The notes under the pieces are model-generated. The model was not told where the DNA came from, ran no database searches, and was given only the letters and a program-made list of their open reading frames with translations. DNA of 64,000 bases, taken from an uncultured Candidatus Saccharibacteria bacterium. GTDB lineage: Bacteria > Patescibacteriota > Minisyncoccia > UBA6257 > CAYRSR01. This document shows positions 12,542-50,203 of the stretch, one piece after another. Location: NCBI GenBank assembly GCA_964427275.1, contig CAYRSR010000003.1:168-64167 (forward strand), written 5' to 3'. A program made the translations under genes and the position numbers. Numbering within the stretch: the first letter of the stretch is position 1; each line of letters begins with the position of its first letter.

Positions 12542-13237
12542 ATGGAATCACTAAGCGATATTATCGAGGTTAAAAAAATTTTTGATGATGGAAGACGGGG
12601 AGAGTTTCATATTGAAAAGTTGTATCCAGGGTATGGGATAACTATAGGGAATGCTCTCAGAAGAGCTTTACTTTCTTCCCTGCCTGGAGCGGGAATTACA
12701 AGTATAAAAGTTGAGGGTGTCTCTCACGAGTTTTCTACTATTCCGGGGGTTAAAGAAGATCTGGTAGAAGTTATATTAAACTTAAAGAGAATTCGCTTTA
12801 AGTTTGTTGGAGAAGAACCCCAAATCTTAACTTTAAATGAAGTTGGGAAAAAGAAAGTAAAAGCCAAAGATTTAAGATGTCCACCTCAGGTTCAACCAAT
12901 TAATAAAGATTTTCCCATTCTTACTCTGGTTGATGATAAAGCTAAGATAAATATGGAATTAACTGTAGAAAAGGGGTTAGGGTATTCACCAGCGTCTCAA
13001 AGACCGGCTAAAAAATTACCAATCGGAACTATTCTTATTGATGCCATTTTTTCTCCAATTGAGAAAGTAAATTTTTCGGTTGAGAATATGAGAGTTAGAG
13101 AGAGAACCGATTATAATAGACTGAAATTAGAAATTGAAACAGATGGTTCTTTAACACCAACTGAAGCATTTAGAAAAGTAAGTCAAATTTTAAGAGATCA
13201 CTACGATAGAATAGAGCAACAGCTAACTAAACTATGA
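12542..13237 (+). CDS. rpoA: DNA-directed RNA polymerase alpha subunit, N-terminal domain only (no alpha-CTD)
   Basis: 231 aa with alpha-NTD motifs (GYGITIGNALRRALLSSLPGAGITSIKVEGV). It ends where rplQ starts. Confidence 0.85.
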   Translation: MESLSDIIEVKKIFDDGRRGEFHIEKLYPGYGITIGNALRRALLSSLPGAGITSIKVEGVSHEFSTIPGVKEDLVEVILNLKRIRFKFVGEEPQILTLNEVGKKKVKAKDLRCPPQVQPINKDFPILTLVDDKAKINMELTVEKGLGYSPASQRPAKKLPIGTILIDAIFSPIEKVNFSVENMRVRERTDYNRLKLEIETDGSLTPTEAFRKVSQILRDHYDRIEQQLTKL

Positions 13238-14311: not shown

Positions 14312-15991
14312 TTAGTTTAGTGTTGCCTTTATTCTTCTAATTCCTTTTCCGATTCCTTTTTCTTTTAATATTTTGAATTTACCTAATTCGGAAGTATTTT
14401 TCACATGAGGCCCTTTACATATCTCTTTACTGTAATCATCAATAAAGTAGACTCTAACTATATCTGGGTACTTCTGCTTAAAGAATGCCAAAGCTCCAAT
14501 TTTTAATGCTTCTTGTAGGGGCATTTCTCTGTAGTAAACTTTCAAGTTTTGTTTTATTTTTTGATTAACTATCTCTTCTATTTTTTTCAGTTCTGCCTCA
14601 GTTAACTTTCTTGGAAAATTAAAATCAAATCGCAGTCGTTCAGGAGTAATATCTGAGCCCTGTTGTTGAACCTGATTTCCTAAAACATCTCTCAATGCTT
14701 GATGTAAAAGGTGAGTTGCAGTATGAAGTTTTTTGATTCTTGGGTGAGGAATAAACCCGTGTCCTCCAAATTTTGCCTCAACTCCAGCTCTAGAAACTTC
14801 TTGATGTTTTTTTAGTAATTCTTGAAATTCTATCTCGGAGAAATTTTTAAGCTTATCTGGTGCCAGGTATTTGATTAATTCCGGTGATAGACCAAAACTT
14901 TGGTATAAGTTGAATACTGCCTTGGTGTCAATAAACTTGAGTTTACTTATTTCTTTTATTCCTCGTCTCAATGTCTGCTGAAATTGAGATATTTCTGCAT
15001 TTAGGACTTTAAGTATTTTAGGTAACTCTAATTCTTTATAAATTGACTGGTATTTTTCCACTACTGCTTTTACTCCTTCATTGAAAATCTGATAATCAAG
15101 TTCGTATTTATACTGGTAGACAGTTAACTTTCTGATTAGTCTTCGTAAAATATACCCAGCTTCTTTGTTTGAAGGAATTAATCCATCTCCAATTAAAAAA
15201 CTAATTCCTCTAAGATGGTCAATAAATATTCGTTGCTTAGTTTCATCTAAGTTCTTGCCATATTTTTGAACCACTGAAGCTAAAGGGGAAAATAAATCAG
15301 TTTTAAAAACATTGGTAGTTTTGTTGAGTATTGCAGTTAGCCTTTCCAGACCCATTCCGGTATCCACTCCGAATGTTTTCAACTTGGAGAGTTGGCCATC
15401 CTTTTGTTGATAATACTGGTTGAAAACTATATTCCAGACTTCCAGTCCATCAATATATATTTCGGTTGTAGGGCCACAAGGACCTTCAGCACCAGTAGGT
15501 CCCCAGAAATTATCTTCTCTGCCGCCAAATTTTATTTTGTCGGCAGGTAATCCAATTTCCTCTTTCCAAATTCTTAAACTTTCTAGATCTGATTCCAGTT
15601 TTTGGCCTTTAAATACCGAAACAAAGATTCGACTAACTGGAATTTTTAGTTCTTTGATTATAAATTCCCAGGCCAACTTTATAGCTTTCAATTTAAAATA
15701 GTCTCCAAAGGAGAAGTTACCAAGCATTTCAAAGAAGGTTAAATGACTAGTATCTCCAACTTTGTCTAAGTCAGTGGTTCTGAAACATTTTTGAATGGAA
15801 CAAACTCGTTTGGTGTTAAAATCTTTAACTGGATCAAGTAATCCTGAAAAATAAGGCTTGAATTGCTGCATTCCAGCAGTAGTTAAAAGTACCTGAGGGT
15901 CATCAGCCAATAACGATGAAGAAGGAATTATTTTATGTTTATACTCCTTGAAGAAAGTTAAGAATTTTTCTCGAACTTCTTCTGATTTCAT
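14312..15991 (-). CDS. alaS: alanine--tRNA ligase, compact form (catalytic plus editing core, no C-Ala domain)
   Basis: N-terminal class II AlaRS motifs ([23 protein letters not shown]), the editing-domain HTATHLLH zinc motif, and ...GIRRIKA near the C-terminus. Only 559 aa. Confidence 0.85.
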
Positions 15992-38025: not shown

Positions 38026-38415
38026 TTGGTTTATAATCTAAGTATGTATAAGTTTATAATCCTGGCTGGGTTAATGCCTGAATGTCCTGAAACTGGGTGC
38101 ACTTTTTGTAATTTAATGCAGTTGGGAGAAAACATCTTAGATTTTTTAATTGGGTTAGCTATTCCAGTTAGTGTTGGTTTTATTGCCTGGGGTGGAATAA
38201 TATTAATAACCGCTGGTGGTAGTGAAAGAAAAGTAAGTGAAGGTAGAAGGATTGTTACTGGTGCAATAACTGGATTAGTTATTGTGCTTTGTTCCTGGTT
38301 AATTTTAAGTACACTCCTTCAGATAATTGCCGGGCAGGAGTGGTACAAACCCTGGAAAAAAATTGAATGTCTTTCAAGTCAAAAACTAGCCAGGGTTGAA
38401 CTTAAAAGATTATGA
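38026..38415 (+). CDS. small two-helix membrane protein, VirB2/TrbC-pilin-like (paralog 1)
   Basis: Helix-GG-loop-helix layout ending ...LLQIIAG. It shares a motif with the next two ORFs. It has an N-terminal Cys cluster CPETGCTFC. Confidence 0.35.
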   Translation: MVYNLSMYKFIILAGLMPECPETGCTFCNLMQLGENILDFLIGLAIPVSVGFIAWGGIILITAGGSERKVSEGRRIVTGAITGLVIVLCSWLILSTLLQIIAGQEWYKPWKKIECLSSQKLARVELKRL

Positions 38416-38738
38416 TTTTATCAATTGTTCACAAAGTTTTAGCAGTAGAATTACCTAATCCGCTAAGGGCTGAAAGTATTGCTGAAGTGATTGAAAGAGT
38501 TATTGACGGATTAATGTGGGTAGCTACCCCGCTGGCTACCATAATGATTTTAGTGGCAGCTTTTCAGTATATGACTTCTGGGGGAAATCCGGAAAACATA
38601 AATCGAGCCAAAAGAACTCTACTTTGGACAGTAATTGGTTATGGAATAATTTTGGTTTCAAGAGGAATAATAGAAATAGTTCAACAACTATTAGGAGCTC
38701 CAGCTTCACCTCCAACTCCACCATTAATTTCAGTTTAA
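38412..38738 (+). CDS. small two-helix membrane protein, VirB2/TrbC-pilin-like (paralog 2)
   Basis: Shared motif AAFQYMTSGGNPENINRAKRTLLWTVIGYGIILVSRGIIEIVQQLLGA. Confidence 0.35.
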   Translation: MILSIVHKVLAVELPNPLRAESIAEVIERVIDGLMWVATPLATIMILVAAFQYMTSGGNPENINRAKRTLLWTVIGYGIILVSRGIIEIVQQLLGAPASPPTPPLISV

Positions 38739-38806
38739 AAACATTAAACTTGACAAGAGGGTAATTAATGGTTAAATAAGATAAAGGTCGAGAGTTTGAA
38801 TAAAAA

Positions 38807-39139
38807 ATGAAGATTATCAAACAAATTTTACCTCTAGTAGTGTTATTTTCAGTAGTGTCACTTCCCTTATTAGCTATCGAGCATGCTCCTGCACCGGTTA
38901 GAAGCATTGAGGATGTAATTGCTATATTAAACCGAGTTGTTGATTGGTTCTTTACTATACTGATGATAGTAGCAGTAATATTTATTTTTGTGGCTGCTGT
39001 TGGATATTTAACCAGTGGCGGGAAGGAGGATAAGATTATTAAAGCTCAAAGACAGTTTATTTATGCTGTAGTAGCAATTGGCATAGCTCTAGTTGCTCGA
39101 GGAATAGAATTTATTGTTAGACAATTACTTGGAGCTTAA
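38807..39139 (+). CDS. small two-helix membrane protein, VirB2/TrbC-pilin-like (paralog 3)
   Basis: Signal peptide plus AAVGYLTSGGKEDKIIKAQRQFIYAVVAIGIALVARGIEFIVRQLLGA. An AAAGGTCGA motif sits 14 nt upstream. Confidence 0.35.
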   Translation: MKIIKQILPLVVLFSVVSLPLLAIEHAPAPVRSIEDVIAILNRVVDWFFTILMIVAVIFIFVAAVGYLTSGGKEDKIIKAQRQFIYAVVAIGIALVARGIEFIVRQLLGA

Positions 39140-40693: not shown

Positions 40694-41617
40694 TTGAACT
40701 TATTGCAATCTTGCCAGGTCATTTTAGCTATTTCAGTACTCAAAAATTTAAAACAGCAAAAAATGAAATATAAAATATTTGTTTTAATTATAATTTTAGT
40801 TTTGATAGGAGGAGGGATTTTTTTAATTCAAAAAGAGAAGGTTTCTAAAACAGAAATTTCTATTGAAAAGGAGCTTAAAGTTAAAAAAGAAAAAGTTTTA
40901 AAAGAAGAAGAAAAAGAAAAATCAGAGGTTAGTTTAATTTCTGTCTATGATAATTATCAGGTTAACCCAGAATTAAAAACTGCCTGGGGATTTGGACTGG
41001 TAATTGAAACTTCAAATGAAAAAATTTTATTTGATACCGGAGGCAACTCAGGTATTTTGCTTTTTAATATGAAAAAATTAGGGGTTGATCCTGAATCAAT
41101 TGACAAAGTGGTAATTTCTCATATTCATGGTGACCATATAGGAGGACTTGAAGGATTTTTAAAGGAAAATCCAAAGGTAAAAGTTTTTATCCCGGCTTCT
41201 TTTCCAGATTCAGTAAGGGAAATGATAAAAAGTTATGGAGCAAATTTTATTAATGTCTCAAGGTCTCAAAAAATTTCAGATTTTATTTTTTCAACCGGCG
41301 AACTTTATGGTCCGCCAGATGAGCAATCTTTAGTGATTCTTTCAAAGAAAGGTTTAATTATAATTACCGGCTGTGCTCATCCAGGAATTGTTAATATTGT
41401 TAAAAAAGCAAAAGAAATGTTTCCTCAAAAAGAAGTTTATCTAGTTTTAGGTGGTTTTCATCATCCACCAAAAAAAGTAGTTTCTGAATTAAAAAAATTA
41501 AAAGTAAAAAAAGTTGCTCCCTCTCATTGCTCTGGAGATGAAATTAGAGAATTATTTAAAAAAGAATATCAAAACGATTTCATAGAAAATGGAGTTGGAA
41601 AAATTATTAGTATATAA
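40694..41617 (+). CDS. MBL-fold metallo-hydrolase paralog with an N-terminal transmembrane anchor and a KE-rich linker
   Basis: YDNYQVNPELKTAWGFGLVIE...ILFDTGGNSG and HIHGDHIGG. The true start is probably the Met at about 40763. Confidence 0.6.
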   Translation: MNLLQSCQVILAISVLKNLKQQKMKYKIFVLIIILVLIGGGIFLIQKEKVSKTEISIEKELKVKKEKVLKEEEKEKSEVSLISVYDNYQVNPELKTAWGFGLVIETSNEKILFDTGGNSGILLFNMKKLGVDPESIDKVVISHIHGDHIGGLEGFLKENPKVKVFIPASFPDSVREMIKSYGANFINVSRSQKISDFIFSTGELYGPPDEQSLVILSKKGLIIITGCAHPGIVNIVKKAKEMFPQKEVYLVLGGFHHPPKKVVSELKKLKVKKVAPSHCSGDEIRELFKKEYQNDFIENGVGKIISI

Positions 41618-42974: not shown

Positions 42975-43874
42975 ATGCTTCCCAGTTACCTTTTTCTTTC
43001 AGAAAAAGAATGGCAGAAAAGAATAGAAAAACTTTTTAAAATTTTGGAAAAGTGTGAGATTTGTTCAAGAAAATGTAAAGTTAATCGGCTTAAAGGAGAA
43101 GAAGGTTTCTGTAGATTAAAATTTTTACCTAAAGTTTCGGCTTATCATCCTCATTTTGGAGAGGAAGGGGTTTTAGTAGGAAAATATGGCTCAGGAACAA
43201 TTTTTTTAACCAGTTGCAATTTAGCTTGTGTTTATTGCCAAAATTATGAAATTTCTCAACTAAGAATTGGAAAAGAGGTTTCTTTTGAAAGATTGGCTGA
43301 AATGATGCTTGAACTTCAAAGAATGGGTTGCCATAATATCAATTTTGTTACTCCAACGCCGCAAGTGCCCCAGATTGTGAAAGCAGTTTATTTGGCAGTT
43401 AAGAAAGGATTAAAAATTCCTTTGGTTTATAACACTAATAGTTATGATTCGGTTGAAGTTTTAAAGTTACTTGAAGGAATTTTTGATATTTATCTTCCTG
43501 ATGCTAAATATTCGGATGATGGAATTGCTTTAAAATATTCTCAAGCCAAAAATTATTTTGAGATTATGAAAAAAGCCATCAAAGAAATGTATCGGCAGGT
43601 TGGCGATTTAAAAATAGACGAAAGAGGGATTGCCTTTAGAGGAGTTTTAGTACGCCATTTAATTTTACCCAATGATTTAGCTGGCTCTGAAAAGATTTTT
43701 CAATTTTTAGCCAAAGAGATTTCAAAAAATACTTTCTTAAACATTATGGACCAGTACTGGCCAGCCTTTAAAGCTTATAAATTCCAAGAACTTTCAAGGA
43801 GAATCAAAAAAGAGGAATTTGAAAATGTGATTTCTTTAGCTCAGAAATTTGGCTTTAAAAGGATTTATTATTAA
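42975..43874 (+). CDS. radical SAM protein, PflA-like (AmmeMemoRadiSam-type layout)
   Basis: CNLACVYC (CX3CX2C) plus an N-terminal Cys cluster CEICSRKC...GFC. Confidence 0.7.
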   Translation: MLPSYLFLSEKEWQKRIEKLFKILEKCEICSRKCKVNRLKGEEGFCRLKFLPKVSAYHPHFGEEGVLVGKYGSGTIFLTSCNLACVYCQNYEISQLRIGKEVSFERLAEMMLELQRMGCHNINFVTPTPQVPQIVKAVYLAVKKGLKIPLVYNTNSYDSVEVLKLLEGIFDIYLPDAKYSDDGIALKYSQAKNYFEIMKKAIKEMYRQVGDLKIDERGIAFRGVLVRHLILPNDLAGSEKIFQFLAKEISKNTFLNIMDQYWPAFKAYKFQELSRRIKKEEFENVISLAQKFGFKRIYY

Positions 43875-43881
43875 AATTAAA

Positions 43882-44106
43882 ATGATGACATTTTTTGGAA
43901 AAATTTTAATTTTAACCGGTATTTTGCTGGTTATTTTAGGTTTAATTTTTTCTTTCTCACCTAAAATTCCTTACTTAGGAAAATTACCTGGCGATATTTA
44001 CATTAAAAAAGAGAATTTTACTTTTTATTTTCCTCTAACAACCTGTCTTTTGATTAGTATTTTTCTTTCTTTATTTTTTTATCTAGTTTCTAAGTTTTTC
44101 AAATAA
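43882..44106 (+). CDS. DUF2905-like small membrane protein
   Basis: MMTFFGKILILTGILLVILGL...LPGDIYIKKENFTFYFPLTTCLLISI. Confidence 0.45.
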   Translation: MMTFFGKILILTGILLVILGLIFSFSPKIPYLGKLPGDIYIKKENFTFYFPLTTCLLISIFLSLFFYLVSKFFK

Positions 44107-44108
44107 TT

Positions 44109-44795
44109 ATGGAAAAGGATTTAATTTTGGAAGTGAAAAATCTTTGGGTAGAATTAGATAAACTGAAGGTTATAGAAAATCTTTCTTTTAGAGTAAAAGA
44201 AGGAGAAGTTTTAACAATTTTGGGACCTAATGGAGCAGGAAAAACGGTTCTTTTAAAAACTTTACTTGGAATTTTTCCTTATCAGGGAGAAATTATTTGG
44301 AAAAAAGGAGTAAAAATTGGGTATGTACCTCAGAGGTTACCATTCATAAAAAATATCCCAATGAGCGTAAAGGATTTTTTTGAATTGAAAGGAATTTCAG
44401 AAACTGAAATAAAGAGTATTCTAAAAGAGATAGACCTTGAAGAGGTTTTTGAAAAAGGAATAGGAAATCTTTCCTCAGGACAATTTCAAAGGGCTTTGAT
44501 TGGCTGGGCTTTGGCAAGAAATCCTAATGTTTTACTTTTTGATGAACCTACTGCAGAAATTGATATTCCAGGAAAAGAAACTATCTATTCTTTAATAAAA
44601 AGATTGAAAGAAAAAAGAAATCTAACTGTTTTACTGGTTACCCATGATCTAAACATAGTTTATAAATTTTCCGATTATATAATTTGTCTGAATAAAACAG
44701 CAATTTGCCAGGGCAAGCCAGAGATAATTCTTACTCCTGAAAACTTACAAAAGCTTTATCGCCACGAAATAAAATTTTACAAACATACCCATTAA
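44109..44795 (+). CDS. metal (Zn/Mn)-type ABC transporter ATP-binding protein
   Basis: Walker A GPNGAGKT, signature LSSGQFQRA and Walker B LLFDEP. Confidence 0.85.
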   Translation: MEKDLILEVKNLWVELDKLKVIENLSFRVKEGEVLTILGPNGAGKTVLLKTLLGIFPYQGEIIWKKGVKIGYVPQRLPFIKNIPMSVKDFFELKGISETEIKSILKEIDLEEVFEKGIGNLSSGQFQRALIGWALARNPNVLLFDEPTAEIDIPGKETIYSLIKRLKEKRNLTVLLVTHDLNIVYKFSDYIICLNKTAICQGKPEIILTPENLQKLYRHEIKFYKHTH

Positions 44796-44799
44796 AATT

Positions 44800-45564
44800 A
44801 TGAACTTTCAACTTATTTTAAGCTTAGTTTCAGGAATTTTTATTGGGGGAGTAGCTGGACTTTTGGGTACTTTGATGCTTTCCAAAAGAATGGCCTTGGT
44901 TGCTGGGCCTTTAGGACATTTAGCTTTACCAGGAATTGCTTTAGCTTTAATTTATAACTTTGATGTTTCCTTGGGTGCATTTCCTTTTATTATTTTAGGA
45001 ATAATTTTAATATGGCTGTTTGAGATAAAAACAAAGCTACCAGTTGAAGCTTTAACTGCCATTGTTTTTGCTTTTGGAGTGGCAATTTCTTTTTTACTCT
45101 TGCCGATTGAAAAAGCAAAAACTGCATTGGTAGGAGATATTACAAAGATTTCTTTAACAGAAACACTGATGATTATTATTTTATCTATCTTAATTGTTGC
45201 CTTGGTAAAAAGGATTTATTCTAAAATAGTTTTAATCAACATTTCAGAAGACTTAGCTAAGGCAGAAAAAATTAATGTTAAAAGATATAATTTTCTCTAC
45301 CTGGGAATTATTGGGATAATGGTTGCTTTAGGAGTAAAAGTAGTAGGAGGACTTTTAACTGCTGCTTTAGTAGCTATTCCTGCCTCTACTTCTAGGAACT
45401 TAAGCAGAAACTTATTTCAATACAATTCTTTAAGCATCTTTTTTGGTGCTTTTTCAGCTCTTTTTGGGATTTTACTTTTTAAGATTACTCATTTTCCGGC
45501 TGGTCCTTTGATAATTATCATTTCGACATTTTTCTTTTTAACTTCTTTAGTTTTTAAAAGATAG
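44800..45564 (+). CDS. metal ABC transporter permease (ZnuB-like)
   Basis: 254 aa, about 8 transmembrane helices, ABC-3 family layout. Confidence 0.8.
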   Translation: MNFQLILSLVSGIFIGGVAGLLGTLMLSKRMALVAGPLGHLALPGIALALIYNFDVSLGAFPFIILGIILIWLFEIKTKLPVEALTAIVFAFGVAISFLLLPIEKAKTALVGDITKISLTETLMIIILSILIVALVKRIYSKIVLINISEDLAKAEKINVKRYNFLYLGIIGIMVALGVKVVGGLLTAALVAIPASTSRNLSRNLFQYNSLSIFFGAFSALFGILLFKITHFPAGPLIIIISTFFFLTSLVFKR

Positions 45565-45602: not shown

Positions 45603-47981
45603 ATGAGATTCTTTCTTTTAGATTTGAATTATATTATTGATTCTTCTGGAAAGACAAAAGCACGCTTGTTTGGAAAGGATGAAAAAGGGAAAGTGGTAAA
45701 GTCTCTTATTGATTTTTCTCCTTATTTTTTTGTTTTGCCAGAGAAAGGAAAGGAAAAACAAGCAATAAGGGATATTGAAAAGTTACTTGCTTTGAAAAAG
45801 AAAAAGGTAGAAAAAATAGAAATTGTAAAGAAAAAATTAAATGGAAAAGAAAAAGCCCTTATTAAAATTACCTGTTTTACTCCTCCTGATACTTCAAATA
45901 TAAGAGACATTGTAAAGAAGCTGGAGAAAAAAAGAGGAGGAAAAGGAACAGTCTTAGAAGAGTATCAATATTCTCTTTCTTTTTCTGATTCTTTTTTGCT
46001 TGAAAATAGGATTTATGAACCTAGTTGGGTTGAAGAAAAGAATGGAAAAATTACTTCTTCTAATATTGAAAAAGAGCCCCAACTAAAGACAATTGCCTTT
46101 GATATTGAAATTAATATTGAAAATGGAAAAGAGAAAATTATTATGATTTCTTATTTTGGAGATAATTTTAAAAAAGTAGTTACTTATAGAAAAAAAGGTA
46201 GATATCCTGATTTTGTAAAACTGGTAAAAAACGAAAAAGAACTTTTGGAAGATTTTGAAGCTACCATTAAAGAAAAAGATCCAGATATTATTCTAACTTA
46301 TAATGGTGATGCTTTTGATTTCCCAATGATAAGAGAGAGAGCAAAAGAGTACAAGTTGAAATTAAAAATCGGAAGAGCTAATGATGAATTCAAGTTTTTA
46401 AGGAGAGGAAGAGCATCAGCAGCTCATATTTCAGGAAGGGTTCATGTTGATATTTTCCCTTTTGTAAATAACATTCTTTCTCCGAGTCTTGAAACTGAAG
46501 TTTTAACTTTAAATGCGGTCTCAGGTGAACTTTTAGAAGATAAAAAAATCGAAATGGATTTTCAGGAGTTGCTGGAGGCCTGGCGAAAGAAAAAAGATTT
46601 ACAGAAGTTAGCCTTATATTGCCTAAAGGATTCTGAACTTACTTTTCGACTTTTCAATTTACTTTCTTCTCAAATCTTTGAACTTTCAAAAATTTCAGGT
46701 CAGCTTCTGTTTGATGTTTCAAGAATGAGCTATTCACAACTGGTAGAAAGCTTTTTAACTAAAAAAGCCCATTATTTAGGAGAGGTAATCCCCAATCAAC
46801 CAAAATTTGATGAGATTTTAAGAAGAAAGCAATTTACCTTTGCTGGTGGTTATGTTAAAGAACCAATTGGGGGAATTCATAAAAACATTGCGGTGGTAGA
46901 TTTTCGTTCTCTTTATCCTTCAATCATTGCTACATTCAATATTTCTCCGGAAACTTTAAATTGTTCTTGTTGTAGGGACAACGGGTTTAAGGTTCCTGAA
47001 TCAAATTTTTGGTTTTGTAAAAAGAAAAAAGGATTTGTTTCTTCAGTAATTAGAGAGCTTTTGAAAGAAAGGTGGGAGATTAAAAAGAGAATGAAAAAGT
47101 TAAAAGAAGATTCAAAAAAATATCATCTTTTAAATACTCGTCAGCAGGTTGTAAAAATTATTACCAATGCTACCTATGGTTATTTTGGTTTCCCTGCTTC
47201 AAAATGGTACTGTAAGGAGTGTGCTCAGTCTGCAGCTTCATGGGGAAGAAGTTTGATTAGAAGAGTAATGGAAAAAGCAAGTGAAAATTTTGTGGTGGTT
47301 TATGGAGATACTGATTCGGCATTTTTAAAGCCAAAAGAAAAAAAGGAGAAAACTCTTAAAAAAGATATTGAAAAGTTCCTAGAAAAAATCAATAAAGCCC
47401 TACCAGGAATAATTGAGTTGGATTTGCAGGGCTTTTATAAAAGAGGAATTTTTATCCCCAGAGGTTTAATTAAAGGCACAGCAAAGAAAAGATATGCTCT
47501 TTTAGATGAAAAAGGAAAGCTCTTAATAAGGGGACTTGAAACTGTAAGAAAGGATTGGTGCAATCTGGCAAAAGAACTTCAAAGAAAAGTTTTAGAATTT
47601 GTACTTAAAAAAGAGGACATTAAAGGAGCTATTAAATATACCCAGAAAACTATTTCAAAATTGAAGTCAAGAAAGATTTCATTAAGAGATTTGGTAATTT
47701 ATGAACAGTTAACCAAGCCAATTGAAAAGTATAAATCTTTATCACCTCATTTAGCCTGTGCTAAAAAAATGAAAGAAAAAGGAGAAGAAGTAGAACCTGG
47801 AACAATTATTATGTTTGTAATTTCAAAAAAGGAAGGAAAAATTTCTGACAAGGCAATTCCTTATGAGTGGGCAAAAGTTTCTGATGTTGATGTAGACTAT
47901 TATATTCATCACCAGATATTACCAGCAGCATTAAGAGTTCTTTCTGTTTTTAAAGTTGAGGAAAAGGACTTAATTGTTTAA
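45603..47981 (+). CDS. family B DNA polymerase with 3'-5' exonuclease
   Basis: Exo I FDIE, Exo II YNGDAFDFP, Exo III YCLKDSELTF. Pol motif A DFRSLYPSII, KKRY motif and motif C YGDTDS. Confidence 0.8.
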   Translation: MRFFLLDLNYIIDSSGKTKARLFGKDEKGKVVKSLIDFSPYFFVLPEKGKEKQAIRDIEKLLALKKKKVEKIEIVKKKLNGKEKALIKITCFTPPDTSNIRDIVKKLEKKRGGKGTVLEEYQYSLSFSDSFLLENRIYEPSWVEEKNGKITSSNIEKEPQLKTIAFDIEINIENGKEKIIMISYFGDNFKKVVTYRKKGRYPDFVKLVKNEKELLEDFEATIKEKDPDIILTYNGDAFDFPMIRERAKEYKLKLKIGRANDEFKFLRRGRASAAHISGRVHVDIFPFVNNILSPSLETEVLTLNAVSGELLEDKKIEMDFQELLEAWRKKKDLQKLALYCLKDSELTFRLFNLLSSQIFELSKISGQLLFDVSRMSYSQLVESFLTKKAHYLGEVIPNQPKFDEILRRKQFTFAGGYVKEPIGGIHKNIAVVDFRSLYPSIIATFNISPETLNCSCCRDNGFKVPESNFWFCKKKKGFVSSVIRELLKERWEIKKRMKKLKEDSKKYHLLNTRQQVVKIITNATYGYFGFPASKWYCKECAQSAASWGRSLIRRVMEKASENFVVVYGDTDSAFLKPKEKKEKTLKKDIEKFLEKINKALPGIIELDLQGFYKRGIFIPRGLIKGTAKKRYALLDEKGKLLIRGLETVRKDWCNLAKELQRKVLEFVLKKEDIKGAIKYTQKTISKLKSRKISLRDLVIYEQLTKPIEKYKSLSPHLACAKKMKEKGEEVEPGTIIMFVISKKEGKISDKAIPYEWAKVSDVDVDYYIHHQILPAALRVLSVFKVEEKDLIV

Positions 47982-48392
47982 ATGAAATTAAACCAGATAA
48001 TTAAAGGGTTTAAAGAATTTGAAAGGTTAAAAGAAGATAAACTAAAAGGAATTTATCTTTTGCTTATTAAAGTAAAGAAAGATACTTCTATTCAAATTGG
48101 TAAATTGAGGAAAATAAGGTTTGATAAAGGAAATTATCTTTATGTTGGTTCAGCTCAAAATAACTTGAGGGCAAGGATAAAAAGACACTTTAGAAAAAAT
48201 AATAAAACTAAATTCTGGCACATTGATTATTTACTTTCCAATAAAAATGTGAAAATTAAAAAGGTATTTTATAAGCTTGCAAAAAAGGAGGAAGAATGCA
48301 AAGCTGCCCGGTTAGCTTTAAAATATGGCAAGCCAATTAGAGGTTTTGGTTGCTCGGATTGTCAGTGTAGGAGTCATCTTATAAAAATTTAA
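47982..48392 (+). CDS. GIY-YIG domain protein (DUF123-like)
   Basis: GIYLLLIK-(~28 aa)-YLYVGSAQNNL…R…H, 136 aa. Confidence 0.5.
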   Translation: MKLNQIIKGFKEFERLKEDKLKGIYLLLIKVKKDTSIQIGKLRKIRFDKGNYLYVGSAQNNLRARIKRHFRKNNKTKFWHIDYLLSNKNVKIKKVFYKLAKKEEECKAARLALKYGKPIRGFGCSDCQCRSHLIKI

Positions 48393-48393
48393 G

Positions 48394-49278
48394 TTACTTT
48401 GATATTTTTAATTTTCTCCTTCTTGTTGCATGAAATGACTGATATACCTGTTTGAGCTGTCGATTGGTTAAATGTGTATATACCTGGGTAGTAGAAATGT
48501 TTTTATGCCCTAAAAGAGCTTGAACTGATCGAAGATCAGCTCCATTAATTAGTAAATCGGTAGCAAAAGAATGTCTTAACTTGTGAGGAGATACTCTTTT
48601 TAGAATTCCCGCTTTTCTGGCATAAAAATCTACAATTCTTTCCACTGTTCTTGGGGATACTGGGAAAAGCTTTGGGCTCACATCCTTTCTTTTGTTTAGA
48701 TACTTTTTTAAGGCTTGTTTAGCTGATTCAGATAAAAAAACTAATCTTAATTGTCCTCCTTTTCCCCTGATTGTAATTTCTCCTTTATCTATATCAATAT
48801 ATCTTTCTAAACTACATAATTCAGATAACCTTAATCCGGTTGAAAACAAAACTTCCAAAATAGCCTTATCTCTTAAGGACTTTAGGTCGTTACCCTGAGG
48901 AGCGTCCAGCAATCTTAAAAGTTCCTGGTAATCTAAAACTTCTATTTGTCTTGGGGGAATTCTTGGAAGTTCTATTTTATCTGGAGATAAAACTTTAAAA
49001 TCTCTTTTAATTAAATATTTTAAGAAATTTCTTAATGCAATTATGTAATAGGATTGGGTATTTTTTTGGAGAGGTTTTCCAGATGCAGTTTTCTTTCTGG
49101 CCAACCACAATCTAAATTCTCTTACTTTATCTTTGGTTATATCCTTTTCGGTTTTAATTTTAGAAAATTTAAAGAAGGTCTCTAGATAATGTCGGTAATT
49201 TCTTCTAGTTCTAATGGAGCGATTTTTTTCAATTTCAAGATAATCTAGATAATCTTTTAAAAGAATGTTGATATCCAT
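48394..49278 (-). CDS. tyrosine recombinase XerC/XerD-like
   Basis: The C-terminal LRHSFATDLLINGADLRSVQALLGHKNISTTQVYTHL matches the Xer catalytic region (R..HxxR...Y). Confidence 0.8.
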   Translation of the reverse strand: MDINILLKDYLDYLEIEKNRSIRTRRNYRHYLETFFKFSKIKTEKDITKDKVREFRLWLARKKTASGKPLQKNTQSYYIIALRNFLKYLIKRDFKVLSPDKIELPRIPPRQIEVLDYQELLRLLDAPQGNDLKSLRDKAILEVLFSTGLRLSELCSLERYIDIDKGEITIRGKGGQLRLVFLSESAKQALKKYLNKRKDVSPKLFPVSPRTVERIVDFYARKAGILKRVSPHKLRHSFATDLLINGADLRSVQALLGHKNISTTQVYTHLTNRQLKQVYQSFHATRRRKLKISK

Positions 49279-49895: not shown

Positions 49896-50051
49896 TATGA
49901 CGGAAAAAGTTTTAAGCCTTTACATTGATTATAAGTCTTAAACATTAAAGGTCAAATTAATTATTCCTACAACAGAAGATATTTATAAAACTTCTTTAGA
50001 TAAATTACAGAACTAATCTGGCAAGAGAATAGCAGGTACTTAGAAAGCTTG

Positions 50052-50123
50052 TGGACCGATGGGGACTTGAACCCCAGACCTTCGCAGTGCAAGTGCGACG
50101 CTCTACCGCTGAGCTATCGGCCC
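50052..50123 (-). tRNA. tRNA-Ala (TGC)
   Basis: Acceptor GGGCCGA with the G3·U70 wobble, and anticodon loop CUUGCAC. Confidence 0.85.
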
Positions 50124-50131
50124 AGTTGTTG

Positions 50132-50203
50132 TGCGCACGCCTAGATTCGAACTAGGGACCTCTGCTTTATCAGAGCAGCGTTCTACCCCTGAACTACGTG
50201 CGC
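50132..50203 (-). tRNA. tRNA-Ile (GAT)
   Basis: Acceptor GCGCACG/CGTGCGC, anticodon stem-loop CUGCU-CUGAUAA-AGCAG. Confidence 0.85.

What the first reader, a model, noticed from the sequence alone, without database searches (positions are those of the whole stretch)
45603..48392. Proofreading family-B DNA polymerase paired with a DUF123-type GIY-YIG protein in a CPR-like genome
All three exonuclease motifs and the PolB motifs A, KKRY and C (YGDTDS) are intact, so the enzyme is likely active. Small-genome Patescibacteria normally replicate with Pol III only, so a PolB is accessory here. It is followed 1 nt later by a 136-aa GIY-YIG protein (GIY…YVG…R…H). Within 2 kb are a Xer-type tyrosine recombinase and tRNA-Ala/Ile genes, so a remnant integrative element or repair module is possible. 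I did not see a transposase, a terminal protein or inverted repeats at its edges.
Basis: partly seen in the sequence, partly recalled or inferred. Interest (0 to 1): 0.55.

Follow-up and report, generated by a model that had tools for sequence, protein, structure and literature searches.

The report
Archaeal-type proofreading polymerase in a CPR bacterium
A small-genome (Patescibacteria) bacterium carries an intact DNA polymerase of the kind archaea use, inherited from an old archaea-to-bacteria transfer and lacking the tail that binds the archaeal sliding clamp; the nuclease gene next to it is a neighbour only in this one population, not a conserved partner.

Summary
ORF 45603-47981 is a full-length family-B polymerase with all exonuclease and polymerase motifs. 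ORF 47982-48392 is a DUF123/COG1833 GIY-YIG nuclease that starts right after the polymerase stop codon. The host is a Patescibacteria-like bacterium.

The interpretation needs changing. The polymerase is not Pol II, phage-type or protein-primed. It is an archaeal B3-type enzyme (523 bits to Pyrococcus PolB, 167 to E. coli Pol II). It belongs to a clade whose checked members are all bacterial, nested inside Aenigmarchaeota-like B3 sequences. The only systematic difference from the archaeal sisters is loss of the C-terminal PIP-like (PCNA-binding) tail.

It is a resident chromosomal gene:
- Sibling genomes have orthologues at 69-86% identity.
- dN/dS is about 0.08.
- Composition matches the host.
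- The upstream DUF2905 gene is syntenic in three siblings.
- There are no bounding repeats and no close viral relatives.

The PolB-DUF123 pairing is not conserved. It is absent from all other PolB loci examined and from 80 DUF123 loci. One sibling carries DUF123 a few genes away, and four siblings have an NTPase_1 gene after PolB instead. The Xer gene and the tRNAs look like ordinary chromosomal genes.

The likely role is an accessory, PCNA-independent repair or gap-filling polymerase; this is inferred, not shown.

The parts
45603..47981 (+). Archaeal-B3-derived family-B DNA polymerase with intact 3'-5' exonuclease and no C-terminal PIP-like tail
   Evidence: Pfam and NCBIfam hits. Best solved structures are Thermococcales PolB at 523 bits, against 167 for E. 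coli Pol II. Catalytic residues are present. The C-terminus ends at the position matching Pfu residue 756 of 775. Archaeal sister sequences carry an ...LLGESLKSFLK tail that this protein lacks.
47982..48392 (+). DUF123/COG1833 GIY-YIG nuclease with a C-terminal Cys/His cluster. Its start codon abuts the PolB stop, and it has a 20-aa N-terminal extension not seen in most homologues.
43849..44106 (+). DUF2905 small membrane protein. It is a synteny anchor: it directly precedes PolB in sibling genomes.
   Evidence: Pfam PF11146 1.8e-23. It is adjacent to PolB in L003, L005 and L017.
44109..45564 (+). ABC ATPase plus ABC-3 permease (Znu/Mnt-like). Here they lie between DUF2905 and PolB; in siblings L004 and L005 they lie downstream of PolB. 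This marks a local rearrangement.
   Evidence: Pfam ABC_tran and ABC-3. Gene-order comparison.
48394..49278 (-). Xer-type tyrosine recombinase, convergent with DUF123. This is context: probably the host's chromosome-dimer resolvase, not an element integrase.
   Evidence: Phage_integrase plus SAM-like N-domain. NCBIfam XerA_Arch scores 238 against a cut-off of 220; XerC scores 240 and XerD 230, both below their cut-offs. It has host-like composition.
50051..50203 (-). tRNA-Ile(GAT) and tRNA-Ala(TGC) pair. This is context; I saw no direct repeat or att-like duplication linking it to the PolB region.
   Evidence: ARAGORN and Rfam. Repeat scan.

Best explanation
The locus holds two separately resident, archaeal-type DNA-repair genes of a Patescibacteria lineage. 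It is neither a mobile element nor a conserved two-gene module.

**The polymerase.** It descends from a DPANN (Aenigmarchaeota-like) B3 polymerase that was transferred into Bacteria (shown). It now belongs to a clade in which every contig I checked is bacterial. That clade kept every exonuclease and polymerase catalytic residue but lost the C-terminal PIP-like peptide (shown). Established work on archaeal PolB says this peptide tethers the enzyme to PCNA. In this lineage the gene is inherited vertically under strong purifying selection (shown).

Inferred mechanism: it works without PCNA as an accurate accessory polymerase beside the bacterial Pol III replisome. Likely jobs are gap filling after excision, replication restart, or synthesis on damaged or uracil-containing templates. 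I found no conserved beta-clamp motif, so it probably acts distributively or through an unknown partner.

**The nuclease.** The DUF123 protein is an intact GIY-YIG nuclease of the mostly archaeal COG1833 family. In this population a local rearrangement has placed it immediately after PolB. The two genes are probably co-transcribed here (stop and start codons abut), but the adjacency is specific to this population.
For: **B3 affinity**
- 523 bits to Pfu, KOD and Tgo PolB; 346 to Pyrobaculum B3; 167 to E. coli Pol II; 143 to Sulfolobus B1.
- All Pol II NCBIfam models score far below their cut-offs.

**Homologues**
- Twelve relatives at 69-86% identity come from contigs that are CPR-labelled or, as far as checked, bacterial.
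- The next tier, at 50-60%, comes from Aenigmarchaeota and from Desulfofervidaceae.

**Phylogeny**
- In an NJ tree with tails excluded and Pfu as outgroup, the 44 tail-less sequences form one clade (130/200 bootstraps).
- The window's own subclade is supported 196-200/200.
- The tail-less clade is nested inside the tail-bearing archaeal set in every replicate in which it was monophyletic (65 of 100).

**Context**
- Every tail-less member whose contig I checked is bacterial: L001-L009, L011, L017, L018, L019, L103.
- The one archaeal genome locus, L010, keeps the tail.
- The only systematic indel between the two groups is the missing tail.

**Residency**
- dN/dS is 0.07-0.09.
- PolB has GC 0.310 and GC3 0.222, against a window mean of 0.331 and 0.239.
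- DUF2905-PolB synteny holds in siblings.
- The same arrangement was assembled independently in four samples.
- There are no close viral relatives and no defence-system match other than an intein-PolB artefact.

**Pairing not conserved:**

**Repair role of B3 enzymes:** T. kodakarensis PolB is dispensable for growth but needed for repair (PMC6759347; also summarised in PMC7544198).
Against: - The function is inferred only. No expression or biochemical data exist, and the rest of the genome (polA, dnaE, dnaN) is outside the window.
- Support for a single bacterial clade is moderate (65% NJ bootstrap). I could not run a maximum-likelihood tree.
- Only about a third of the 44 tail-less sequences had their genomic context checked.
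- The 0-nt spacing, and the presence of DUF123 and a LigD 3'-phosphoesterase gene in the same neighbourhood of siblings, leave room for a loose functional link.
- The uracil-sensing pocket is only partly conserved, so template-uracil stalling cannot be asserted.
Confidence: 0.7

Rival explanations
1. PolB and DUF123 form a real repair module. The GIY-YIG nuclease incises next to a lesion (an AP site, uracil or a 3'-blocked end), and the proofreading PolB resynthesises the patch. This would be an imported archaeal-style excision pathway, possibly together with LigD 3'-phosphoesterase and NTPase_1.
For: - The stop and start codons abut, so the genes are likely co-transcribed or translationally coupled.
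- Both families are typically archaeal (PMC1564403).
- COG1833 is fused to endonuclease III in Methanococcales, which led to a base-excision-repair proposal (PMC1564403).
- Sibling contig L100 carries LigD_N, a small gene, DUF123 and then the MBL2 orthologue. In L005 that MBL2 gene lies about 1 kb (two genes) upstream of PolB.
- A family-4 UDG lies 3.5 kb downstream of PolB in L002.
Against: - The adjacency occurs only in this population. It is absent from all 15 other PolB loci I fetched (screened by tblastn or by precomputed Pfam gene tables).
- It is absent from all 80 DUF123 loci, 43 of which are longer than 4 kb.
- Four siblings have NTPase_1 after PolB instead.
- The recurrent DUF123 neighbours elsewhere are two kinases (labelled from the sequences only, not confirmed by a family search), not polymerases.
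Confidence: 0.15
2. The region is the remnant of an integrated mobile element (phage, plasmid, casposon or pipolin-like) that brought its own polymerase and was integrated by the adjacent tyrosine recombinase next to tRNA genes.
For: - A tyrosine recombinase and two tRNA genes lie within 2 kb.
- Gene order around PolB varies between siblings. L017 has an R-M/Abi island upstream of PolB.
Against: - Composition and codon usage are host-like.
- No bounding direct or inverted repeats stand out.
- No Cas1, terminal protein, or DNA_pol_B_2 (PF03175) match was found in this protein.
- There are no close IMG/VR relatives. The best PHROG polymerase family scores 247 bits, against 523 for cellular archaeal B3.
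- PolB has been retained at dN/dS 0.08 across siblings, with a conserved upstream neighbour.
- Xer scores as XerC/D/A, not as a phage integrase subfamily.
- The flanks are housekeeping genes (M50 protease, DprA, TopA).
Confidence: 0.05
3. The archaeal-type genes are an assembly or binning artefact: archaeal DNA joined chimerically to a bacterial contig.
For: The nearest non-lineage homologues are archaeal.
Against: - The same PolB-DUF123-Xer junctions were recovered in independent assemblies from four samples.
- Intergenic gaps are 0-38 nt, and GC and codon usage are uniform.
- Many sibling MAG contigs carry the orthologue among bacterial genes.
- Desulfofervidaceae contigs of 81-203 kb also carry it among bacterial housekeeping genes.
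Confidence: 0.02
4. The B3-type PolB has become a main replicative polymerase of this lineage, replacing or sharing the role of Pol III.
For: - Purifying selection is strong, and PolB is more conserved than its neighbours: 84% identity against 68-77% for adjacent genes between the window and L005.
- B3 enzymes replicate DNA in some archaea (PMC7544198).
Against: - The clamp-loader gene dnaX lies next to PolB in L017, and bacterial DnaG is in the window. This implies an ordinary Pol III replisome.
- The polymerase has no recognisable clamp-binding motif, which argues against processive replication.
Confidence: 0.05

Closest known systems
Archaeal PolB3 (B3 group; Pyrococcus/Thermococcus PolB, e.g. 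PDB 3A2F, 1TGO)
   Same: - Collinear over the full length (query 5-790 against Pfu 2-756).
- 523 bits.
- All Exo I-III, motif A/B/C and KKRY residues are present.
- The conserved Cys pairs are present.
- Most of the N-terminal uracil-pocket residues are present.
   Different: - It is encoded in a bacterial chromosome.
- It lacks the C-terminal PIP-box tail, ending at the equivalent of Pfu residue 756 of 775.
- Two pocket positions are changed: V93->T and P115->S.
- It has an 8-residue insertion before KKRY, shared with its DPANN sisters.
Aenigmarchaeota-type B3 polymerases (nearest archaeal sisters, e.g. P0024, P0087, P0098, L010)
   Same: - 51-57% identity.
- Same length class and the same insertion before KKRY.
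- They fall in the same 50%-identity cluster representative, P0071.
   Different: The archaeal proteins end in a ...LLG(E/Q)SLK(S/R)FLK PIP-like tail. The window protein and its bacterial clade do not.
E. coli Pol II and the bacterial PolB groups G1, G2 and G3 of Kazlauskas et al. 2020 (PMC7544198)
   Same: It is an accessory family-B polymerase in a bacterium that replicates with Pol III. Like G2, it is of archaeal origin.
   Different: - Not G1: 167 bits to Pol II, Exo II reads NGDAFD rather than the GWN signature, and NCBIfam Pol II models score below cut-off.
- Not G2: G2 is nested in B2 with degenerate Exo I/III and a single Asp in motif C, whereas here all are intact.
- I did not compare sequences against G3 (epsilon-like). 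The B3 match is far stronger than the match to any eukaryotic-type polymerase.
- That survey describes no bacterial group inside B3.
COG1833 / DUF123 'Uri superfamily' GIY-YIG nucleases (Dunin-Horkawicz et al. 2006, PMC1564403)
   Same: About 130-150 aa, with GIY and YVG boxes, Arg/His, Glu and the C-terminal His/Cys cluster. The family is mostly archaeal, with sporadic bacterial members explained by transfer.
   Different: - It has a 20-aa N-terminal extension, created by using a start codon that abuts the PolB stop.
- It has no endonuclease III fusion.
- The family still has no experimentally defined substrate in the literature I could search.

Membership tests
Archaeal B3-group family-B DNA polymerase | Closest sequence relatives are B3 enzymes rather than B1, B2, Pol II or eukaryotic-type polymerases | tested here: met
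   523 bits to Thermococcales PolB and 346 to Pyrobaculum B3 (5mdn), against 167 for Pol II, 143 for Sulfolobus B1 and about 159 for Pol delta. The nearest named homologues are from Aenigmarchaeota.
Archaeal B3-group family-B DNA polymerase | Intact Exo I/II/III and polymerase motifs A, B, C and KKRY | tested here: met
   D167/E169, D236, Y339/D343, D433/Y438, K518, D569/D571 and K628 are all present.
Archaeal B3-group family-B DNA polymerase | N-terminal read-ahead uracil-binding pocket (Pfu Y7, P36, Y37, P90, V93, I114, P115, F116; residue list from my own knowledge of the Pfu/Tgo structures) | tested here: inconclusive
   The window has Y10, P40, Y41, P94, T97, L125, S126 and F127. Five of eight are identical, I->L and V->T are conservative, and P115 is S. 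Position 115 is N or S in both the archaeal and bacterial relatives. Function is not testable in silico.
Archaeal B3-group family-B DNA polymerase | C-terminal PIP-box peptide for PCNA binding (PIP boxes lie at protein termini; Pfu PolB binds PCNA through one: PMC3504372) | tested here: not met
   The protein ends 19 residues short of Pfu. All 44 members of its clade lack the tail that the archaeal sisters carry.
Archaeal B3-group family-B DNA polymerase | Encoded in an archaeal genome alongside PCNA, RFC and an archaeal primase | tested here: not met
   The window encodes bacterial DnaG, GyrA, RpoD, RecG, TopA and DprA. No PCNA was seen in the annotated ORFs of the window; the rest of the genome was not available.
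Bacterial Pol II (G1, E. coli polB type) | Reaches the NCBIfam Pol II equivalog score; GWN signature in Exo II (PMC7544198) | tested here: not met
   NF004421 scores 256.7 against a cut-off of 570; the other Pol II models fall further below. Exo II reads TYNGDAFDFP.
Bacterial G2 / archaeal B2 (translesion-type PolB) | Degenerate Exo I, missing Exo III, single Asp in motif C (PMC7544198) | tested here: not met
   All these motifs are intact in the window protein.
Protein-primed PolB, casposon or pipolin self-replicating element | DNA_pol_B_2-type polymerase with TPR insertions; Cas1 or a terminal protein; terminal inverted repeats or att sites | tested here: not met
   No PF03175 hit for the window protein. 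The neighbours are an ABC transporter, DUF123 and Xer. No bounding repeats. No close viral-contig relatives.
DUF123 / COG1833 GIY-YIG nuclease | PF01986 match above cut-off; GIY and Y(V/I)G boxes, Arg, Glu; C-terminal Cys/His cluster; GIY-YIG fold | tested here: met
Integrative element with tyrosine integrase at a tRNA gene | Integrase adjacent to cargo, att repeats (often a tRNA 3' end duplication), atypical composition, patchy presence among close relatives | tested here: not met
   No repeat links the tRNAs to the far side of PolB. Composition is typical. PolB is present in all sibling loci recovered. The recombinase scores as Xer.

The most novel reading that the evidence does not exclude
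Bacteria harbour a fourth, so far unclassified PolB group beside G1-G3. It would be a proofreading B3-derived clade acquired from DPANN archaea and spread through several lineages: this Patescibacteria lineage, Desulfofervidaceae and at least one more. It would be adapted to life without PCNA by deletion of the PIP tail. In CPR genomes it would work with other imported archaeal-type repair genes that cluster around it (DUF123 GIY-YIG nuclease, LigD 3'-phosphoesterase, NTPase_1) as a clamp-independent excision and gap-filling pathway.
Probability: 0.2. Interest if true: 0.6.

Novelty: new variant of a known kind. Interest (0 to 1): 0.42.

Why it matters
The broad PolB survey I could read (PMC7544198) recognises three bacterial groups, none of them inside archaeal B3, and concludes that bacteria gained PolBs by separate imports. 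A B3-derived, exonuclease-proficient clade that lost only its PCNA-binding tail would be a further, cleanly interpretable import. It would show which part of an archaeal replisome enzyme becomes dispensable once it is removed from its clamp.

It also adds a repair-type polymerase to the sparse DNA-maintenance repertoire known for CPR bacteria. The enzymes themselves may interest enzymologists, because they are small, proofreading, possibly thermotolerant and naturally PCNA-independent.

The specific claim that drew attention, a PolB/GIY-YIG pair or mobile-element remnant, is not borne out. The locus itself is therefore of moderate rather than high interest.

Tried and rejected
1. **Exact look-up of the window PolB in the contig index:** not on record. 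The DUF123 look-up succeeded and returned only same-population contigs.
2. **Cluster-member look-up for organism names:** no names were returned. I inferred host taxonomy from named GyrA homologues instead.
4. **Defence-system reading:** the only PADLOC hit is a 1671-position 'HEase' model. From its length and how it matches, I take it to be an intein-bearing PolB, so I treat the hit as an artefact.
5. **Phage origin:** the best PHROG polymerase family scores 247 bits, far below archaeal B3, and IMG/VR holds no close relative.
6. **Beta-clamp-binding motif (Qhxhh) conserved in the bacterial clade:** none at the C-terminus. One internal column matches in 16 of 44 members, but not in the window protein.
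7. **Clade-specific fixed substitutions between bacterial and archaeal groups:** none at the 90% level.
8. **Bounding repeats:** only AT-rich, chance-level matches, plus one 28-nt repeat reported under 'noticed in passing'.
9. **Literature searches** for DUF123+GIY-YIG, family-B polymerase+Patescibacteria, AUK117, Desulfofervidus+polymerase and DPANN/Patescibacteria interdomain transfer found no description of a bacterial B3 PolB. The library is incomplete, so this is not proof of absence.
10. **Representative search at 50% identity:** it collapses the bacterial clade and its archaeal sisters into one representative, so it could not measure the diversity of the bacterial clade.
Full report
**1. 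Observation**

The polymerase stop TAA is followed directly by ATG.

The first protein matches Pfam DNA_pol_B (4.4e-70) and DNA_pol_B_exo1 (1.9e-25). The second matches DUF123 (1.1e-29) and, just above threshold, GIY-YIG.

All catalytic residues of Exo I, II and III, motifs A, B and C (YGDTDS) and KKRY are present. All but motif A Y438 (H in 3 sequences) are invariant in 118 aligned homologues.

A Xer-type recombinase lies convergently 1 nt downstream. tRNA-Ala and tRNA-Ile lie about 1.7 kb away.

**2. Host**

The window is a piece of bacterial chromosome. It holds PheS/PheT, the CCA-adding enzyme, ComEC, ribosomal proteins S13/S11/S4, RpoA, L17, L13, S9, AlaRS, RpoD, DnaG, GroEL, RecG, GyrA, DprA, TopA and pentose-phosphate enzymes. 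It also has three tandem T4SS-pilin genes, which in my experience are common in CPR genomes.

Of the 12 closest GyrA homologues that name an organism, 10 are Paceibacterota, Parcubacteria, Minisyncoccia, Brennerbacteria or 'Patescibacteria group' (one is Chloroflexi, one plain 'bacterium'), at 54-57% identity. 'CPR-like' is therefore supported.

**3. What kind of PolB**

By sequence, the best solved structures are Thermococcales PolB (Pfu 3A2F 523 bits; Tgo, KOD and 9°N similar). Next come Pyrobaculum B3 (346), E. coli Pol II (167), Pol delta (about 159) and Sulfolobus B1 (143). The Pol II NCBIfam equivalogs score far below their cut-offs. The Exo II motif reads NGDAFD, not the GWN signature of the Pol II clade described in PMC7544198.

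The protein is thus an archaeal B3-type enzyme. It is not Pol II, not the exonuclease-degenerate G2/B2 type, and not protein-primed (no PF03175 hit).

Among 5.8 billion proteins, the homologues fall into tiers:
- Twelve relatives at 69-86% identity. Those whose contigs I examined lie among bacterial genes, and their genome records are labelled Candidatus Saccharibacteria or 'bacterium' (AUK isolates).
- A large set at 50-60% identity. Its named members are Aenigmarchaeota archaea and Candidatus Desulfofervidus / Desulfofervidaceae bacteria.

**4. The C-terminal tail**

Listing the C-termini shows a clean dichotomy.
- Sequences named as Aenigmarchaeota, and the one locus from an archaeal genome (L010), end in ...LLG(E/Q)SLK(S/R)FLK. 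This fits the hydrophobic/aromatic core of a PIP box. PIP boxes lie at protein termini, and Pfu PolB binds PCNA through one (PMC3504372).
- The window protein ends at ...EEKDLIV. This aligns with Pfu residue 756 of 775, just before the Pfu tail.

Forty-four sequences share this truncation. A column-by-column comparison finds the missing tail to be the only systematic indel between the two groups. There are no fixed substitutions and no conserved clamp-binding-like motif.

In an NJ tree built without the tail columns, with the Pfu sequence as outgroup:
- The 44 tail-less sequences form one clade (130/200 bootstraps).
- The window's subclade has 196-200/200 support.
- In each of the 65 (of 100) replicates in which the tail-less clade was monophyletic, it is nested inside the tail-bearing set. 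Its sister group is a subset of tail-bearing sequences that includes L010 and an Aenigmarchaeota protein.

Every tail-less member whose contig I inspected lies among bacterial genes:
- the CPR-like loci L001-L006, L011 and L017;
- L018 and L019, with Mur ligase, EF-P with its bacterial C-domain, and (L018) a D-Ala-D-Ala carboxypeptidase-type protein;
- Desulfofervidaceae L007-L009 and L103, the last with FtsH, FolP, GlmM, CoaX and MnmA.

At 50% clustering, the bacterial clade and its archaeal sisters share a single representative. The bacterial clade is therefore a shallow offshoot of one DPANN-type B3 subfamily.

The simplest reading is an archaea-to-bacteria transfer, followed by loss of the peptide that is useless without PCNA.

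**5. Resident gene or mobile element?**

- *Composition.* PolB (GC 0.310, GC3 0.222, scaled codon chi-square 0.106) and DUF123 (0.280, 0.241, 0.352) lie inside the range of the window's 55 genes. The mean GC is 0.331 (sd 0.034), and short genes commonly have chi-square values of 0.3-0.46.
- *Repeats.* Apart from one 28-nt repeat discussed in section 8, the repeats in 43-51 kb are AT-rich, chance-level matches, and none brackets the genes.
- *Selection.* Sibling orthologues give dN/dS of 0.07-0.09. dS is 0.9-1.3, near saturation but usable. PolB (84% identity to L005) is more conserved than its neighbours (68-77%).
- *Synteny.* The small DUF2905 gene directly precedes PolB in L003, L005 and L017. 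In the window and L002, the ABC ATPase/permease pair lies between them (for L002 only the permease end is on the contig); in L004 and L005 that pair lies downstream of PolB.
- *Viruses and defence.* No close relative exists in IMG/VR. The best phage family scores 247 bits. The single PADLOC hit is a 1671-position 'HEase' model that I take to be an intein-bearing PolB, so I treat it as an artefact.
- *Xer.* The recombinase scores as XerC/XerD/XerA. The archaeal XerA model is above its cut-off; the bacterial models are just below theirs.
- *Assembly.* The same PolB-DUF123-Xer junctions were assembled independently in four samples. This also excludes a chimeric contig.

I conclude that PolB is a vertically inherited chromosomal gene in a rearrangement-prone neighbourhood, not an element remnant.

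**6. Is the pair a module?**

DUF123 was not found in any other PolB locus I fetched (screened by tblastn or by precomputed Pfam gene tables).
- Four siblings (L001, L003, L004, L005) instead have an NTPase_1 (THEP1-type, PF03266) gene right after PolB. In L005 it overlaps PolB by 4 nt.
- L017 has dnaX on the opposite strand.
- L002 has unrelated genes.

Conversely, 80 metagenomic DUF123 loci (456 kb in total, 43 longer than 4 kb) contain no PolB. Their recurrent neighbours are an APH-like kinase (23 loci) and a small P-loop kinase (19 loci) (labels from reading the sequences, not from a family search), in contexts that look archaeal (ribosomal-protein-like genes, labelled from the sequences only).

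The closest DUF123 (71% identity) is on L100, a 29%-GC contig of a sibling genome. Its gene order is LigD 3'-phosphoesterase, a small membrane protein, DUF123, and then the orthologue (75%) of the window's MBL-fold gene 40694..41617. In L005 that MBL gene lies about 1 kb (two genes) upstream of PolB, preceded by LigD_N.

DUF123 is therefore also a lineage resident that moves within the same roughly 10-kb neighbourhood. Its position after PolB is specific to this population. Co-transcription here is likely, because the codons abut. A loose 'repair neighbourhood' (LigD_N, DUF123, PolB, NTPase_1, and a family-4 UDG 3.5 kb downstream in L002) remains possible, but the data do not support a conserved two-gene system.

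**7. Mechanism**

Shown:
- an intact proofreading B3 polymerase under purifying selection in bacteria that have a bacterial replisome (DnaG and GyrA here, DnaX in L017);
- loss of the PCNA-binding tail;
- no recognisable beta-clamp motif.

Inferred: a PCNA-independent, accurate accessory polymerase for gap filling or restart. This fits the finding that Thermococcus kodakarensis PolB is dispensable for growth but important for repair (PMC6759347; PMC7544198).

The uracil-sensing pocket is mostly conserved. The residue list comes from my knowledge of the Pfu/Tgo structures. The mapping is Y10, P40, Y41, P94, T97 for V93, L125 for I114, S126 for P115, and F127. Read-ahead stalling at template uracil is therefore possible but unproven.

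DUF123/COG1833 remains biochemically uncharacterised in the literature I could search. Its endonuclease III fusion in Methanococcales led to a proposed role in base excision repair (PMC1564403).

**8. Comparison with what is known, and novelty**

PMC7544198 recognises bacterial PolB groups G1 (Pol II), G2 (inside B2, exonuclease-degenerate) and G3 (epsilon-like), and describes B3 as archaeal. PMC4104785 likewise mentions bacterial homologues only for PolB2 and for casposon polymerases. My literature searches found no description of a bacterial B3-type clade. The library is incomplete, so prior description elsewhere cannot be excluded.

I rate the polymerase a new variant of a known kind: a B3 enzyme in bacteria, without its PIP tail. 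I rate DUF123 an ordinary new member of its family. The proposed pairing and mobile-element ideas are not supported.

One small oddity is a 28-nt repeat (82% identical; its 16-nt core is found only twice in 64 kb). It sits at the start of the ABC ATPase gene (44111) and at the end of PolB (47960). These are two of the junctions that differ from the sibling gene order. It may be a rearrangement footprint or chance.

**9. Verdict**

Interest is moderate (0.42). The interest lies in the inter-domain origin and tail loss of the polymerase, not in the gene pair.

Noticed in passing
L005:12373-12891; also L001:2423-2899, L003:3234-3749, L004:2484-2999: In four sibling genomes an NTPase_1 (THEP1-type, PF03266, 3.2e-49) gene follows PolB directly. 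In L005 it overlaps the PolB stop by 4 nt. This PolB-NTPase pair recurs more often than PolB-DUF123. The window has no copy.
   Followed up: partly
window 44111-44138 and 47960-47987: A 28-nt direct repeat (82% identical) has a 16-nt core, GGAAAAGGAYTTAATT, that occurs only at these two sites in 64 kb. One copy encodes the start of the ABC ATPase (MEKDLI), the other the end of PolB (EEKDLIV*). These are two of the junctions that differ from the sibling gene order. It may be a microhomology footprint of the rearrangement, or post-hoc chance.
   Followed up: partly
L100:33-1119 (Logan SRR23186780): In a sibling genome DUF123 sits two genes after a stand-alone LigD 3'-phosphoesterase (LigD_N) gene. 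LigD_N also occurs upstream of PolB in L005 and L017 but is absent from the window. This hints at a shifting cluster of repair genes.
   Followed up: partly
window 48394-49278 (-): The Xer recombinase passes the NCBIfam archaeal XerA model (238 against a cut-off of 220) but falls below the bacterial XerC and XerD cut-offs (240/335 and 230/330). I did not examine whether this is typical of CPR single-Xer systems or is another archaeal-type gene.
   Followed up: no
window 12542-13237 (+) and 14312-15991 (-): RpoA is only 231 aa: the N-terminal and insert domains match, but nothing corresponds to an alpha C-terminal domain. AlaRS is only 558 aa and lacks the usual C-terminal part. Both look like reduced-genome truncations.
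   Followed up: no
window 38026-39139 (+): Three tandem small genes each match the T4SS pilin family PF18895.
   Followed up: no
L020-L099 (80 DUF123 loci): In mostly archaeal-looking contexts, DUF123 is flanked upstream by a ~360-aa APH-like kinase (23 loci) and downstream by a ~140-190-aa P-loop kinase (19 loci). A metallophosphoesterase is nearby in 10 loci. I labelled these families from the sequences only and did not confirm them with Pfam.
   Followed up: partly
L019:14652-15482 and L018/L019 flanks: The bacterial contigs that carry the tail-less PolB (P0015, P0019) also encode a TBP-domain protein (L019), an archaemetzincin-type peptidase M54, AMMECR1 and inositol-1-phosphate synthase. 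These sit next to Mur ligase and EF-P. This lineage seems rich in archaeal-type genes.
   Followed up: no
P0037-P0053 subgroup of PolB homologues: One sister subgroup ends in ...LLGESLF or ...QGKFW(N/D) instead of ...SLKSFLK. The GESLF ending resembles both the Sulfolobus PolB1 QLTLF PIP variant and the bacterial QL(S/D)LF clamp motif (PMC3504372). I did not check whether their genomic contexts are archaeal or bacterial.
   Followed up: no
window 45603-47981, PADLOC hit: The PADLOC model PDLC03707 'HEase' (1671 positions) matches the PolB at 3.4e-136. From its length and match pattern I infer that the model was built from intein-containing PolBs. The label could mislead automated defence-system annotation.
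   Followed up: yes
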